NCBI GenBank assembly: GCA_045614725.1
Contig: JAZLDK010000052.1
Location: 1 to 54,312, forward strand
Origin: Candidatus Enterousia sp.
Lineage (GTDB): Bacteria > Pseudomonadota > Alphaproteobacteria > Rs-D84
Direction: 5' to 3'
DNA length: 54,312 nucleotides
Numbering within the stretch: the first letter of the stretch is position 1; every line of letters begins with the position of its first letter. The position numbers were made by a program. Of the stretch, positions 35,335 to 41,300 are shown piece by piece.

Positions 35335-38300
35335 TTAACATTCCTTTCTTTTTTTCTGTGTAAAACATAGCAATTTCTGGTATAATTATCAAGGAAAAAG
35401 GGGATAAAAAGCATGGCAAATTACACAAAAGCAGATTTTATGACAGCATCACAAATTGCTAAAAAATTCAACCTTGGAACCCAAGAAGTCGTTAACTTGA
35501 TGCGATCACACATTGGTCGCAATATACCAAACGATCCAGTGCATCCAATACTGATCCGCAACAAAACTTCACATAATCGTACATCTAATATTTTACTACA
35601 CCCGTTGGGTCGCGAAGAATTCGAAAAAGTAATCAAAGATTATATAGCAAAAAAGGCAACAAAATGAAATTTAAGTTATTGTATTTTGGTGATATTTTAA
35701 TCAATCCAAAAAAACGCGCCCAGCATATTGCCGATATACGCATGCAATTTCACCCCCAGTTAAAAAAACTGGTGGAACACAGTCCATGGAACAACCTGAC
35801 CCAGTATATGGTTCCAAATCCTACAAAAAGTCCAATTACAACCCGTCATGTTGGCGGTATTGATTGGAATCCAATTATTACCCCGAACCTGAAATTAATC
35901 GCGGAATTAGATATCCAAATGCTGCACCCGGAAATTGTGGGTGTCCCACGCAGCGATATCGACAATCGCGTAAAAACCATCATGGACGGCCTGCGTTGCC
36001 CACAAAACGAACATGAAATCGGCGCAAACACCCCAACGGATATAGGACCAATTTATACATTGCTGGATGATGACCACCTGATAACAAAACTGTCCGTAAA
36101 CACCAGTCACTTGCTGGATAACAGTCTATTTTCAGAACATATCCTGCGCACACCGGATTCAATCTTTATGATGATTGATGTGAATGTCCGCGTCGCCGAA
36201 GGTACACTTGAAAACCTGCCATTTATGGTCTAGGCTGCAAAAAAATAAAAGATAATGGTGCAGATGTGACTAAACCCGCCAGCGAAGTGTACAGAAGTTA
36301 CATGAGCCGGCGGGTTTAGTCGCAGATGCGCCATTAGATTTTATTTTTATGTAAGGGCACTGGTAATCTGATCCTGCATCTGAAAAGTACCCAACACCAC
36401 CCAGGCGATTATAACGGATACTAAAAGAATACCAAGGCTGTTAAGAGTGTTGGAAATTTTTTCCATTTTTCGAACCGATTCATTCAAATAATCGTTCGCG
36501 ATTTGATTAAGATTTTCATCAAAGCCATTCATATCAGCATATATGGTAAGGTCGCCGATAATTTCTTCGTCTGGAAATTCGCGTTCGGTACGGTTCAGTG
36601 CAACCCCCAGGTTGTCACCATTGGCAATAAAATGTAATGCGCGGTCTAAAATATTTCTAAGATAACGATTGGCATTATCGGACAACATGCGAAGTGCATC
36701 TGGTATGGTCACACCCGCACTAACCATCGCCCCAAGTGACATCAACCAACCAACCGAAACCTGAATTTTATAAATATTCCAAGGCGGCAGTTTATCAAAC
36801 AATGTGCGCAAACGACCAGACCAATTTGCCAAACTTAGCCATATAATACCAATCGCACCCGCAAAAATCATTGCAAATATATACCAGTATTTAATTGAAA
36901 AATCCGATAACCATACAAGTGATGCCGCCGTTCCACGCCATACGATATTATTGCCGGCAACCTCGGCCAATGGGGGCACTAAATACACACCGACCATGAT
37001 TATGATACCAAATGTCAACGCCAACAAAAACAAAGGATAAGCAATTGCGGTTGTCATTGCGCGACGAATTCGTTGCGTTCCTTCGACCACACGCCCAACA
37101 TTTTCCAACGCCACAACCAGATTAGATAAATTACCACTGGTCACCAAAAGTGTTTCTTCCGGTGGCACCCAACCGCGTGTTGCTTCTGAAAAACTCATCC
37201 CGCGTTCAAGGTTTTTCTGCCACTGACGCATAACAATCGCAAAGGGCTCATTTGGCTTGGTACCATTTTTAGATTCGATTGCTTCCAACCGTTCCAGTGC
37301 ATCAATTAATGTAAAATCATTACGCAACAACGAAGCCAATTTTCGACAAATCGACATACGCTTTTCGGTATTTAACCGAAACATTAATTTTGCATACCAC
37401 AGTTCCAGTCTGTTCATATCAATAGGCCCCTGGTTCATTTACATACCCGACCCAACGTTCAAACTCGTCAATACTAATAATACCCTGCAGCATTAATTGC
37501 GCGGCAGCTTCTTTCAATGTACGACCATCCATTTCTTCCAGCCAATATTTCACCGCACCATCTGTATTTCCCGACAATGCCAATTCCAAGAACTTGCTGT
37601 TTGTAATAATAATTTCACCCGCCTTGATACGACCGATTGTTCCAGTGCCATTACAATGCGCACATCCCGCCCCGCGCAAGAAAACCTGACGCAGTCCCAG
37701 TTCACCATACGCCGCCATCATTCGTTTATATTCTGGTCTTTCTGGGTGGTCACTAAGTCTTTCACGACAATGCGGACAAATTTTTTTGAACAAACGCATA
37801 GAAACCAATCCACGCATCAATGTTTCTTCTTTTAACTTAAACGGTTCGATTCCCAAATCCAGCAAACGCGTCAACGCCGCCATCGCCGAATTGGCATGCA
37901 AAGCCGTCCACACATTATGCCCCGACAGCGCACCACGCACGGTCAACTGCGCCGCCGCCAATGTACGAATTTCCCCCACCATCAATGTATCAGGGTCACT
38001 TCGCAACGCGGCCGCCAAGGCTTCTACATATTTTTCTTCGCGCTGCTCTTCATTGGTCGTATTAACAACCGGCATTTGGTGTGCACCAAAAATCTTTTGT
38101 TCAACAGGATTTTCCACGGTAATCATGTTAATTTCGTAATTTCGTTCCTTTAACATCATGGACATATTACGAACCAAGGTCGTTGATTTACCGGAACTGG
38201 TCGGCCCCGCAACAATCACCAACCCCGTTGGAAAAGAACGCATACGCGCCAACAATTGTTGTTCATATTTATCAAATTCTTGTTCTGTTTTGATACCTTC

Positions 38301-41300
38301 GGACGGGTTATCATACAACAGACGCATAACCACATATCGCGTACCAAATGCAATTGGGTTAAATTGCATACGCACACCCAACACACCAGACGGCAAATAC
38401 AAATCCTTGGTTCCGCGCAGTGGTGTACGCCCATCTTTTTGTGCGGACTGATATTCATTTTGCGCATAGTTTGCATTTGACATATCGGCCGATGCAAATG
38501 CCGCACGAACAAAGGATTCACCCCACCCCGAATTATATTCCAATACGGGTTGCATACTGCCATCTATACGAAAATATACGGTTGTTTGGTCCGCGACTTC
38601 GATATGAACATCCGACACCTTTTGCGCAGCGGCCTTTGCGATAATATCCACAAAATCCTTTTGCATTTGGTTGTCATAGTCCATACGCGCACGCACATTA
38701 CCACCAATGCGCATTTCATGCGTTCTATACAGATTTGAAATCAAACTAAGATCGGAATAAAACGGTTCATGCAAAACGCGTCCGCGCTTTTCCAACAAAT
38801 CAAGAAACGCCAGCACACGACCATCATAACGATGTGTTCTGGAAATAATAACCTCGCCACCGGAAAAATACGCAATAATTCCCTGGGTATCTTTTGGCAA
38901 TTCCAGTTCGGCCCCCGTCGCGGTCAATAAACGATTTTTATTAGAAAACAAATAATCGATAATATCTTTACTTTCCGCGCTTTCCAACCCCATCGGAACT
39001 GACGGTTTTTCATCACCAATATTGCCCAAGATATTTTTTTCAGAATTTGCCATTTATATTAATTTCCATTAACAATGTTAAGGGTATGTTTATCGCCATT
39101 TTCATCAACAAACACAACCCCTTCGTCCAATGATATAGACTTAACCGTCATACCATCTAATTTTTTACCAACCGAAATCCGTTTATTTTGCCCCGTGGCC
39201 AAATCAGCAATTGTTGCCTGTAATTGCGCCCCCGCCCCAACAACATTAACCAGTTTATATTTTTCATTAAGACTTTGTTTTTTCTGCACCGCAACTGGTT
39301 CAATATAGGACTTAGTAGTATCAACTTTGTTTGCTTCGGCCTCTATCTTTTCTTTTTCCGCAACCAGACGCGCCGCCTCGGCTTCCAGTCTTGCTTTTTC
39401 ATTTTCAAATTCCTGCTGTTGCTGTTCTGCACGCCCCGACAAAGTATCGATTTCCATATGCAGTTTAATTTTTTCCGCCGCCAATCTATCCAGTTCCAAA
39501 TCCAACTGGGCACGTTCTTTTTCCAACTGCATCAAGATTTTTTCTTGTTCCAAATCAGTTATTTGCTGAAACAAAGAACCCTCAACCTGATAATCTTCGA
39601 CCGCCTGTGCAGATAATTCTTCCATTTCCACATCAATATCACCCGCAGAATCCACTTCCACCGCGACAATTTCTTCTGCGAACAATGGCACAGACAGAAA
39701 CAATCCAAAAATCACACCCAAAAACTTAATTTTACTTTGCATAGATTATCACCTCATAGTTCCAAACACGTGTTTTTACACTCCATGTGCACTTTGTCAG
39801 GTACACCCCACCAAATTCATCCAATACTTCCATAATCTGCATTGGGATTAATTTTGTTTGCACCGACATTTCCACCACATTAACATTTGCGACATCAACA
39901 CCATTCGTTAATGTATCAACAACCACCTCGGTCTGAATATCTGTATCAATTGCCTGAAACGCACTTATTAAATCACGCACCAATGTTTCAGGATCGCGTT
40001 CGTCCTGACTGGCACTTGTTTTAAGTTCAGGCAACGCCGTCCGCACACGAATACTGTCTTCATTTATTTCCTGAACAAACACCCCTGGCATCAGGGCAGC
40101 AACATTATTATAAAAATCAGCCAATGTTCCAAAACTGCGCTGAAACACAACAAAAGCATGCGTTTCACCACATTCCACATCAATCTGATTCCAACCCGCA
40201 ATCGGCTGCATCAAAAATCCAATCGCCTTATAACAAAGCTCCGCGCGTTGCATCGGATTTGGCAACAATTCATACGGCATAACAATTGGTTCTGGCGGCA
40301 ATTGCTTTTCGATTTCAAATTGCTGGTCTAACTCTTTATTTTTTTCTTCTAATTGCTTTTTGTATTCCGCCGCTAATTCTGGATTAAGTTCCGCAACCTG
40401 GGGCCGTGGTGCAACCGTTTGAACAACAGACTCGCGAAAAACACCAACCATACCCAATACAAACATAACAATTAAAAACGCAGACAACAACCATGTGTTC
40501 AATCGACTGACCGAATGCAGAACCGCATGTGACACACCACCCAAAACATCAGAAATATTTTTATCCGCCGCACGCGGCATTCCCCAATCACTTGGTGCAA
40601 AGAACGCACCCCAATCGGGAATTTCGGATAATTTTACATATTCAGTACGCGCCACATCTTCTGAATCAAAAATTTTATCTTCTATGACAATACCATTTCT
40701 GGCCGCAACCAGATAATACACCGAACCAACCCGAAACACCGCCAGGAACGAGGTATATTCTGAAAAAGTATTCATAATCTCGGCCGCGGCACTTGGCATA
40801 CCCGCACGATGTCCCCACCTGCGCGCACCCAATGCGACCATGGACCGATAATCCAAATAAAGATTTAATTTTTTATCAACACTTTGCGCCAAAGACCGCG
40901 CATAATTTCGCGCAACATAACCGGCCGCTATTGGTTGCCAGAACAACCCAACGGCAAATTTTTTGCGATTAACATTTATAGTTTTATTGGCCAATAAATT
41001 CTCTCTCTAGATATCTTTTTTTAATTATAACACAAAAATCTAAATCAAGGCAAATGATTTAAGGTACATAAATCCAGAATCTTAAAATAAAAATCCCCAA
41101 ACGGGGATTTTTTTTAATAACAACTGCCATAGGCGCATCCACTTGCCACCACCGGCACAGATATAGTTTGCGCGCCACCATCTTTGGCGGTACGAACATT
41201 ATTTGGATGTGGGCAATCATAAACATTAGCCACCAAAACAAACGAACGTTCCGGCCCAAATATCACCCATTCATTTGGTTTTGTACGCTGACTAGTAATC

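What the first reader, a model, noticed from the sequence alone, without database searches (positions are those of the whole stretch)
36347..40994. Pilin-less type IVb-pilus / T2SS-like four-gene module
This is a tightly packed minus-strand operon whose genes overlap by 11 and 20 nt or are 5 nt apart. It encodes a 420-aa bitopic protein (GspL / R64-PilO-like topology) and a 227-aa coiled-coil protein with a PilP/GspC-like C-terminal beta module. It also encodes a GspE/PilB ATPase with all nucleotide-binding boxes and the tetracysteine motif, and a GspF/PilC platform protein. The order and sizes parallel pilO-pilP-pilQ-pilR of R64-type type IVb pilus clusters. However, there is no prepilin (no short ORF with a G/[FM]xxxE leader), no prepilin peptidase and no secretin in the operon. 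The two accessory proteins have no motif I can tie firmly to a known family. The operon is bounded by a terminator (41086-41117) and by hairpin element D. This could be a stripped-down or divergent secretion or fibre machine in a bacterium that also carries a type IV secretion gene (virB4 at the right edge).
Basis: partly seen in the sequence, partly recalled or inferred. Interest (0 to 1): 0.7.

Follow-up and report, generated by a model that had tools for sequence, protein, structure and literature searches.

The report
Type IVb pilus motor operon, parts scattered
The four genes are the inner-membrane assembly core of an ordinary R64-type type IVb pilus in a tiny-genome gut alphaproteobacterium, and it only looks "pilin-less" because relatives keep the pilin and outer-membrane channel genes at other chromosomal sites.

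Summary
Four tightly packed minus-strand genes (36347-40994) encode a PilO2-family bitopic protein, a PilP-family coiled-coil protein, a BfpD/PilQ-like extension ATPase and a GspF/PilR-like platform protein. They stand in the order seen in R64-type type IVb pilus clusters. No pilin, secretin or peptidase lies in the operon or anywhere in the 54-kb window.

The "stripped-down, pilin-less machine" reading does not hold for the lineage. The window is a chromosomal contig of an uncultured gut alphaproteobacterium (Candidatus Enterousia / order Rs-D84, genomes under about 1 Mb). The module is found in 243 species genomes. It usually sits between lpxC and gyrB and is as conserved as housekeeping genes.

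Relatives carry two further loci:
- A TcpQ plus PilN-family lipoprotein secretin locus.
- A pilin locus beside dnaX, with a 152-aa prepilin of PilS/TcpA fold and three large pilin-like genes.

In several genomes these loci lie on the same contig as the module, or next to it. Only a prepilin peptidase was never found, and genome-wide absence could not be tested.

Verdict: a new member of a known kind, with a dispersed gene layout. Interest is modest. It comes from the host lineage, which is thought to depend on partner organisms and for which the genome paper read here reports no pili.

The parts
41024..41053 (-). Promoter-like site for the operon (TTGCCT, 18-nt spacer with TG, TATAAT), about 30 nt upstream of the pilO2 start
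   Evidence: 10 of 12 matches, the best in the region. This is a consensus match only. The total number of such sites in the region is not above the shuffle expectation.
39732..40994 (-). pilO2-like gene: a 420-aa bitopic protein with a cytoplasmic N-domain, one TM at residues 162-180 and a periplasmic C-domain
   Evidence: PF06864 33.6 bits, above the 26.7 cut-off. Homologues at 81% identity are named 'type 4b pilus protein PilO2' by NCBI. blastp to Bosea plasmid PilO2 gives 2.4e-19. TM segment. Found in 81 of 81 module loci, median identity 62%.
39059..39742 (-). pilP-like gene: 227 aa with a signal peptide, a long coiled coil and a C-terminal beta domain
   Evidence: TIGR03021 pilP_fam 32.7 bits against a 34.65 cut-off. 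27 of 27 lineage orthologues hit the same model, best E 2.2e-10. The 11-nt overlap with pilO2 is kept in relatives.
37419..39053 (-). pilQ/bfpD-like extension ATPase, 544 aa
   Evidence: PF00437 209.8 bits. Best PDB match is BfpD at 2.8e-76. 36% identity to the Bosea R64-type ATPase at 5.9e-102. All nucleotide-binding boxes and two CxxC motifs are present. Median identity across the lineage is 84%.
36347..37438 (-). pilR/gspF-like polytopic platform protein (363-aa ORF; the true start is probably 37417, giving 356 aa)
   Evidence: PF00482 105.4 bits with two stretches. 35% identity to the Bosea platform protein at 2.7e-79. Median identity across the lineage is 82%. The 356-aa orthologues start at MNRLE/MNKLE.
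36255..36334 (.).
   Evidence: -44 kcal/mol, z = -9.1, 0 of 200 shuffles fold as well; the arms occur only here in the window.
41089..41112 (-). Intrinsic terminator of the upstream 137-aa lipoprotein gene. It marks the 5' boundary of the operon.
   Evidence: a 10-bp stem with a 4-nt loop followed by a T-run, -13.4 kcal/mol, z = -3.2.

Best explanation
The four genes are the inner-membrane assembly core of an R64/PilO2-type type IVb pilus. It is chromosomal and vertically inherited in the genome-reduced gut lineage Rs-D84 (Candidatus Enterousia and relatives).

**Proposed mechanism (inferred from the families).**
- The hexameric BfpD/PilQ-like ATPase docks on the polytopic PilR-like platform protein.
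- The bitopic PilO2 protein holds the ATPase through its cytoplasmic, actin-like domain and reaches into the periplasm.
- The coiled-coil PilP-like protein bridges to a PilN-family lipoprotein secretin and its TcpQ-like partner.
- Processed prepilins are lifted from the membrane into a thin fibre.

**Gene layout (shown).** The secretin/TcpQ pair and the pilins are encoded at two other chromosomal loci in this lineage, so the operon is pilin-less but the system is not. The pilins are a 152-aa PilS/TcpA-fold subunit plus three 400-460-aa pilin-like proteins.

**Role (inferred, least certain).** The likeliest role is adhesion or contact with a partner cell or host surface, in an organism thought to depend on partners.
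For: **Shown.**
- Family assignments of all four proteins.
- The same gene order, TcpQ-secretin-PilO2-PilP-ATPase-platform-(PilT)-pilin-PilV, in annotated Bosea and Salmonella plasmid clusters.
- The module is present in 243 species genomes. The best 80 are all gut or rumen Alphaproteobacteria / Ca. Enterousia MAGs.
- Order and spacing are kept in 77-81 of 81 loci. Identities are like those of housekeeping genes: ATPase 84%, platform 82%, PilO2 62% and PilP 61%, against LpxK 71% and GyrB 92%. This argues for purifying selection.
- Lineage secretin: Pfam Secretin 52.7 bits. TIGR02520 (PilN family) is by far the best model at 256 bits, against MshL at 95. It is a 542-559-aa lipoprotein like R64 PilN and is preceded by a TcpQ-domain protein (PF10671, 67 bits).
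- The secretin is found on 166 metagenome contigs, including ones of 935 kb and 851 kb.
- Secretin and module share a contig in L052 (9 kb apart) and L105 (7 kb apart).
- Pilin family: 1432 protein clusters. PF08805 PilS is hit by 13 of 30 sampled members. G/RSLIE is invariant, with E at +5.
- AlphaFold model of the pilin: pLDDT 81.7. Its significant PDB matches (E<=0.001) are all the type IVb pilins TcpA and CofA (TM 0.57-0.72, probability 1.00); S. Typhi PilS follows more weakly (E 0.07).
- Pilin and module are adjacent in L033, L043 and L067.

**Inferred.** Protein-protein contacts and the role of the pilus.
Against: - No A24 prepilin peptidase, PilT-like retraction ATPase or lytic transglycosylase was found in about 2.8 Mb of flanks around the three loci.
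- The window's own genome outside these 54 kb was not available, so the pilin and secretin are shown for relatives, not for this organism.
- PilP, PilN and the ATPase fall below NCBIfam equivalog cut-offs.
- The PilO2 structure model was poor at the N-terminus, and Foldseek gave no significant match.
- The pilin has a 6-residue leader and Arg at +1, which is unusual for type IVb pilins.
Confidence: 0.85

Rival explanations
1. A truly pilin-less and secretin-less derivative. The ATPase, platform, PilO2 and PilP would have been co-opted for another inner-membrane task in this organism.
For: No pilin, secretin or peptidase lies in the operon or the 54-kb window. No peptidase was seen in any sampled flank.
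Against: Relatives with 55-81% identical PilO2 have PilN-type secretin and PilS-type pilin genes on the same contigs. The pilin family is as widespread as PilO2, with 1432 against 904 clusters. PilP keeps its C-terminal domain, which matches the TIGR03021 model, in all orthologues.
Confidence: 0.04
2. The machine works mainly as a secretion device: a type II-like or pilus-dependent exporter, as TCP exports TcpF and CFA/III exports CofJ. Adhesion would not be its main job.
For: The best NCBIfam hits for the ATPase and platform are GspE and GspF (223 and 77.7 bits). Type IVb systems are known to secrete proteins (established knowledge of TCP and CFA/III). The lineage lacks standard transporters and has many unknown envelope proteins (PMC12306168).
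Against: The GspE and GspF scores are far below the equivalog cut-offs (630 and 424). The accessory set (PilO2, PilP, PilN, TcpQ, PilS-fold pilin) is type IVb, not Gsp. No GspC, GspL, GspM or GspG-K was seen. No candidate secreted substrate was identified.
Confidence: 0.1
3. A DNA-uptake (competence) pilus.
For: dprA lies a few genes downstream of the secretin in the conserved secretin locus (secretin-rpsT-plsY-x-dprA-dnaA). Type IV pili drive transformation in many bacteria.
Against: dprA is widespread, and here it sits among housekeeping genes. No ComEA, ComEC or retraction ATPase was seen in the sampled flanks. R64-type pili are not known as competence pili (from general knowledge).
Confidence: 0.08
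4. A decaying remnant of an integrated R64-like plasmid or ICE pilus operon.
For: R64-type pil genes are normally plasmid- or island-borne. A virB4-like gene is in the window. lpxC nearby carries an in-frame stop.
Against: The ORFs are intact in 77-81 of 81 species loci, and the catalytic motifs are intact. Identity is at housekeeping level. The position between lpxC and gyrB is fixed in about 60 loci. GC content equals that of the surroundings.
Confidence: 0.02

Closest known systems
R64 / PAPI-1 / Burkholderia PilO2-type thin pilus (type IVb, 'R64 variant': PilL-PilM-PilN-PilO-PilP-PilQ-PilR-PilS-PilT-PilU-PilV)
   Same: The PilO2 (PF06864)-PilP (TIGR03021)-ATPase-platform order and sizes match. 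The lineage also has a PilN-family lipoprotein secretin of about 550 aa, a TcpQ/PilL-like partner and a PilS-domain pilin (PMC3984277 for the PilO2 family definition).
   Different: The genes are split over at least three chromosomal loci among housekeeping genes, instead of one plasmid or island operon. PilP carries an added coiled coil of about 100 aa. The pilin is short (152 aa), with a 6-residue leader and Arg at +1. No shufflon, PilV, PilT transglycosylase or PilU peptidase was found. Sequence identity is only 20-36%, and three proteins score below NCBIfam cut-offs.
EPEC bundle-forming pilus (BfpD ATPase, BfpC bitopic protein, BfpE platform)
   Same: BfpD is the closest solved structure to the ATPase (260.6 bits, residues 35-528). 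BfpC was placed in the PilO2 family PF06864 (PMC3984277).
   Different: No bundlin, BfpB, BfpG or BfpU equivalents were identified. BfpF-type retraction ATPase was not found.
Vibrio cholerae TCP and ETEC CFA/III (type IVb pili)
   Same: The predicted pilin fold matches TcpA and CofA best (TM 0.57-0.72). A TcpQ-domain protein accompanies the secretin.
   Different: The pilin is 40-55 residues shorter than TcpA or CofA and has a short leader. The accessory proteins are of the PilO2/PilP type, not TcpR/D/S.
Type II secretion system (GspE/F/L/M/C/D)
   Same: The ATPase carries the tetracysteine motif. The platform protein and a GspL-like bitopic topology are present. GspE and GspF are the top NCBIfam hits.
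   Different: Scores are far below the Gsp equivalog cut-offs. The secretin, pilin and accessory proteins all classify as type IVb. No pseudopilin operon is present.

Membership tests
R64-type (PilO2) type IVb pilus | PilO/PilO2 bitopic assembly protein (Pfam PF06864) | tested here: met
   33.6 bits, above the 26.7 gathering score, covering model positions 1-347 of 419. One TM segment.
R64-type (PilO2) type IVb pilus | PilP family protein (TIGR03021) | tested here: inconclusive
   The window protein scores 32.7 bits against a 34.65 cut-off. All 27 of 27 orthologues match at E<1e-3, best 2.2e-10.
R64-type (PilO2) type IVb pilus | Extension ATPase of the type IVb clade (PilQ/BfpD/TcpT-like), next to a PilR/GspF-type platform | tested here: met
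   BfpD is the best PDB hit. 36% identity at 5.9e-102 to the Bosea cluster ATPase, and 35% at 2.7e-79 to its platform protein. No formal phylogeny was made.
R64-type (PilO2) type IVb pilus | PilN-family lipoprotein secretin (TIGR02520) | tested here: inconclusive
   Absent from the window. Present in relatives: 256 bits against a 287.65 cut-off, best model by 160 bits, with a lipobox N-terminus. On the same contig as the module in L052 and L105.
R64-type (PilO2) type IVb pilus | PilS-type major prepilin | tested here: inconclusive
   Absent from the window. In relatives, PF08805 scores 24.1 bits (cut-off 22) and is hit by 13 of 30 members. The fold matches TcpA and CofA; PilS (1q5f) matches only weakly.
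R64-type (PilO2) type IVb pilus | Dedicated prepilin peptidase (PilU, A24 family) | tested here: not met
   Not found in the window or in about 2.8 Mb of related flanks by phmmer, motif scan or Pfam on membrane-protein families. Genome-wide absence is not testable with these tools.
R64-type (PilO2) type IVb pilus | PilV tip adhesin with shufflon and Rci recombinase; PilT lytic transglycosylase | tested here: not met
   No hit to Bosea PilV, the Salmonella PilV-like protein or the Salmonella transglycosylase. Three unrelated large pilin-like genes take the place of minor pilins.
Type II secretion system | GspE and GspF equivalogs (TIGR02533, TIGR02120), with GspC/L/M/D and pseudopilins | tested here: not met
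   223 bits against a 630 cut-off and 77.7 against 424. No Gsp accessory or pseudopilin genes are in the window or the related loci.
Type IVa pilus | PilB equivalog (TIGR02538), with PilM/N/O/P/Q | tested here: not met
   188.6 bits against a 675.65 cut-off. The accessory genes are of the type IVb PilO2/PilP kind.
Tad/Flp pilus | TadA/CpaF ATPase, TadB/C, Flp pilin | tested here: not met
   The TadA-family model scores only 35 bits against a 373 cut-off. The pilin is not Flp-like.

The most novel reading that the evidence does not exclude
The dispersed, vertically inherited R64-type type IVb pilus is a core organelle of the genome-reduced, apparently partner-dependent Rs-D84/Enterousia lineage. 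It would be used to hold on to a partner cell or the host, and perhaps to work together with the chromosomal VirB-type system seen at the window edge. This would resemble the reliance of Patescibacteria epibionts on type IV pili. It would be the first case of a plasmid-type 'mating' pilus domesticated as a lifestyle-defining chromosomal system.
Probability: 0.3. Interest if true: 0.6.

Novelty: new member of a known kind. Interest (0 to 1): 0.3.

Why it matters
For the finding as written, the main result is negative. The module is not a new pilin-less machine. It is the assembly core of a recognisable type IVb pilus whose other genes are encoded elsewhere.

The residual value lies in the host. 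Rs-D84/Candidatus Enterousia are uncultured gut bacteria with genomes under about 1 Mb, no respiratory chain and few transporters. They are proposed to live off partner organisms (PMC12306168). That genome survey reports type IV pili for another lineage but none for Rs-D84.

A type IVb pilus kept as well as housekeeping genes in 243 species genomes is a concrete candidate for how these bacteria attach to or interact with partners. It gives three conserved loci to target in metatranscriptomes, imaging or enrichment work.

It is also a caution for genome scans. In reduced genomes, multi-part machines are often scattered, so 'missing' partners in one window are weak evidence of absence.

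Tried and rejected
- **Window proteins in the contig index.** Exact look-up of the window ATPase and PilO2 found no record, so the window's own assembly could not be walked.
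- **PilO2 structure.** AlphaFold with a 12-sequence alignment gave pLDDT 70, with residues 1-67 below 50. Foldseek against PDB gave no match at E<=0.001, only faint actin-like fragments. The structure route to PilO2Bp/BfpC/GspL is therefore inconclusive.
- **PDB sequence searches.** The 420-aa and 227-aa proteins returned nothing useful.
- **PilP structure.** Not attempted.
- **Prepilin peptidase.** phmmer with a Salmonella A24 peptidase, a GxGDxK motif scan, and clustering plus Pfam of all polytopic 120-330-aa ORFs in the flanks were all negative. One conserved 8-TM family near the secretin locus has no conserved Asp and was rejected as a peptidase.
- **Secretin protein-database search.** It gave only 57 clusters, all on contigs under 12 kb. 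This briefly suggested that the secretin is rare. The metagenome scan then found it on 166 contigs, up to 935 kb, so the low count was a search or database artefact.
- **137-aa lipoprotein upstream of pilO2.** Considered as part of the system (a pilotin). A terminator separates it from the operon, and it travels with lpxC: it is absent where the module sits next to the pilin locus. It was left out.
- **'Hairpin element D' as a repeated element.** The arms occur only once in the window.
- **Literature.** No paper in the library reports pili in Rs-D84, RF32 or Enterousia.

Full report
**What is at the coordinates**

The window holds four co-directional minus-strand ORFs at 39732-40994 (420 aa), 39059-39742 (227 aa), 37419-39053 (544 aa) and 36347-37438 (363 aa). 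Their junctions are an 11-nt overlap, a 5-nt gap and a 20-nt overlap.

The best promoter-like site of the region (TTGCCT, 18 nt with TG, TATAAT) lies at 41024-41053. A short terminator at 41089-41112 ends the preceding lipoprotein gene. A very stable hairpin at 36255-34 (that is, 36255-36334; -44 kcal/mol, z = -9.1) follows the last stop codon. The arm sequence of this hairpin occurs nowhere else in the window.

In relatives the platform gene starts at the residue that matches M8, 1 nt after the ATPase stop. The 20-nt overlap is therefore probably an artefact of taking the longest ORF.

**What the four proteins are**

- **420-aa protein.** It passes Pfam PF06864 (PAP_PilO; 33.6 bits against 26.7) over nearly the whole model and has a single TM segment at residues 162-180. 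Homologues at 81% identity are named "type 4b pilus protein PilO2" in NCBI records. PF06864 is the family defined around Burkholderia PilO2 and BfpC, whose N-domain has an actin-like fold (PMC3984277).
- **227-aa protein.** It has a signal peptide, a long coiled coil and a C-terminal domain that matches TIGR03021 (PilP family). The window score of 32.7 bits is just under the 34.65 cut-off, but 27 of 27 orthologues hit the same model.
- **544-aa protein.** It is a T2SSE ATPase with Walker A, Asp box, Walker B, His box and two CxxC motifs. Its closest solved relative is the type IVb ATPase BfpD (2.8e-76). GspE (1.7e-44) and PilB/PilF follow well behind.
- **363-aa protein.** It is a T2SSF platform protein.

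The ATPase and platform are 36% and 35% identical to those of an annotated R64-type cluster on a Bosea plasmid. None of the GspE, GspF, PilB or TadA equivalog cut-offs is approached.

**Comparison with canonical clusters**

tblastn of the PilO2-like protein against plasmids found only PilO2 genes. In Bosea pBSY19_1 and in a Salmonella plasmid the order is TcpQ-family protein, secretin, PilO2, PilP-position protein, ATPase, platform, PilT-like ATPase, pilin, PilV. An A24 peptidase and a transglycosylase lie nearby.

The window has exactly the middle four genes of that order. Housekeeping genes flank them:
- DUF374-lpxK-lpxC-lipoprotein on one side.
- Two small plus-strand genes and gyrB on the other.

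The rest of the window is also housekeeping (ruvA, mnmE, lolCDE-like genes, ftsQ/A, uvrB, aspS, rmlABCD). GC content over the module is unremarkable. No pilin, secretin or peptidase is in the window by Pfam, by a prepilin-motif scan, or by tblastn with lineage proteins.

**Whose genome this is**

The PilO2-like protein has 904 homologous clusters. The window itself is a 54,312-bp NCBI contig.

A scan of one genome per GTDB species found the module in 243 genomes. The best 80 are all gut or rumen MAGs titled Alphaproteobacteria bacterium or Candidatus Enterousia sp., including a circular 958,618-bp chromosome. Enterousia belongs to the uncultured order Rs-D84. Its genomes are about 0.75-1.0 Mb and lack the TCA cycle, respiratory chains and standard transporters. 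They are proposed to be partner-dependent. The paper reports type IV pili for another lineage but none for Rs-D84 (PMC12306168).

**Conservation**

Across 81 module-bearing loci the four genes keep their order and spacing. Median identities to the window, with housekeeping genes for comparison:

| Protein | Median identity |
|---|---|
| ATPase | 84% |
| Platform | 82% |
| PilO2 | 62% |
| PilP | 61% |
| LpxK | 71% |
| LpxC halves | 66-78% |
| GyrB | 92% |

lpxC lies just upstream in about 60 loci and gyrB downstream in about 57. This is a vertically inherited, selected chromosomal module. It is not a decaying island.

**The 'missing' parts exist in the lineage**

*Secretin.*
- phmmer with the plasmid cluster proteins found a secretin fragment at the edge of L052, 9 kb upstream of pilO2.
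- Its full-length relatives are 542-559-aa lipoproteins, like R64 PilN. Their best NCBIfam model is the PilN family TIGR02520 (256 bits; cut-off 287.65; next model, MshL, 95 bits).
- A TcpQ-domain protein (PF10671, 67 bits) precedes them.
- A metagenome scan found this secretin on 166 contigs, including ones of 935, 851 and 697 kb. The conserved locus is TcpQ-PilN-rpsT-plsY-x-dprA-dnaA.
- In L105 the module lies 7 kb downstream of the secretin.

*Pilins.*
- A motif scan of the loci found prepilins in L033, L043 and L067 (152 aa, MKSxSG/RSLIEVIG..., immediately after dnaX and 2 kb upstream of pilO2) and in L010 (158 aa).
- The same loci (L033, L043, L067) hold three 403-458-aa pilin-like genes (RG/ASITEV, RG/NMLVEL, RG/SFLMQA).
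- The 152-aa family has 1432 clusters. It hits PF08805 (PilS) in 13 of 30 sampled members. G-1, R+1 and E+5 are invariant.
- Its AlphaFold model (pLDDT 81.7) has significant PDB matches only to the type IVb pilins TcpA and CofA (TM up to 0.72). S. Typhi PilS follows more weakly.
- In Candidatus Enterousia GCA_045635825.1 the pilin (about 203 kb) and pilO2 (about 117 kb) are on one 221,705-bp contig. A 114,374-bp ENA contig appears to hold both as well, judged from matching contig length.

**What was not found**

No A24 prepilin peptidase, PilT-like ATPase, lytic transglycosylase or PilV/shufflon was seen in about 2.8 Mb of flanks. Whole genomes could not be read with the tools available, so absence is not established. 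The window's own assembly is not in the contig index.

**Interpretation**

The operon is the inner-membrane core of an R64/PilO2-type type IVb pilus. The lineage has spread the system over at least three chromosomal loci. The mechanistic picture follows from the families and was not tested here: the ATPase sits on the platform, PilO2 clamps it, PilP bridges to the PilN/TcpQ pair, and PilS-fold pilin polymerises with three large minor pilins.

The role is inferred only. Adhesion to, or contact with, a partner or host fits the proposed lifestyle and the known adhesive and mating-stabilising role of R64-type pili. Pilus-dependent secretion or DNA uptake remain possible. The virB4-like gene at the window edge shows that a type IV secretion component is also chromosomal here, but no link between the two systems was shown.

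**Verdict**

The 'pilin-less, stripped-down machine' reading is not supported for the lineage. This is a new member of a known kind with an unusual dispersed layout, and its interest is modest.

Noticed in passing
window 41546-42484 (-), stop at 41960-41962: lpxC is interrupted by an in-frame TAA, giving ORFs of 174 and 132 aa. The orthologue in L001 is an intact 313-aa protein with Ser at that position. This is either a sequencing or assembly error or a nonsense mutation in a normally essential gene.
   Followed up: partly
window 35664-36233 (+), with 35413-35667 (+): A 189-aa ORF between the platform gene and gyrB is the most conserved protein of the neighbourhood (median 93% identity in 55 of 81 loci). 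It has no Pfam or NCBIfam match. The small 84-aa ORF before it is found in only 3 loci.
   Followed up: partly
window 45286-49932 (-): A 1548-aa ORF lies in a low-GC stretch (29-34% against about 43%). It has an M48/HtpX-like peptidase motif at the N-terminus and a weak UbiB-kinase-like region. Only 2 of 81 related loci have it, so it looks like a strain-specific insertion.
   Followed up: partly
window 53985-54312 (-) and 53363-53977 (-): The contig edge encodes the C-terminal 108 residues of a VirB4-like protein. They are 41% identical to the end of the 816-aa protein that follows VirB2 and VirB3 on a Microvirga plasmid, with weaker hits to Paracaedimonas plasmids. A 204-aa protein of unknown family follows, and then the rmlABCD genes.
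   Followed up: partly
window 20488-22269 (+): One 593-aa ORF combines an FtsA-like region with a complete ribulose-phosphate 3-epimerase domain. It is either a real fusion or two genes read through because a stop was missed.
   Followed up: no
window 41114-41527 (-): A 137-aa lipoprotein (lipobox LAAC, several Cys near the C-terminus, no family) sits directly upstream of pilO2 in 59 of 81 loci at 79% median identity. It has its own terminator. It is absent where the module lies next to the pilin locus, so it seems tied to lpxC rather than to the pilus.
   Followed up: partly
L067 965-5914 (-); also L043, L033, L086-L089: The conserved pilin locus also holds a zinc-ribbon membrane protein (175 aa) and a secreted protein of 150-169 aa downstream of the three large pilin-like genes. 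One of the three has Gln instead of Glu at +5, as tip pseudopilins of the GspK type do.
   Followed up: no
L084 9681-11286 versus L171 9692-11320 and L105 9647-11326: The secretin is one 542-559-aa lipoprotein ORF in L171 and L105. In L084 it is called as a 97-aa lipoprotein plus a 441-aa secretin. Several database secretins are truncated at contig ends.
   Followed up: no
L097 5135-5986 (-), L084 5087-5995 (-): A conserved 283-302-aa, roughly 8-TM protein with no family match lies a few kb upstream of TcpQ in 29 secretin loci. It has no conserved Asp, so it is not an A24 peptidase.
   Followed up: partly
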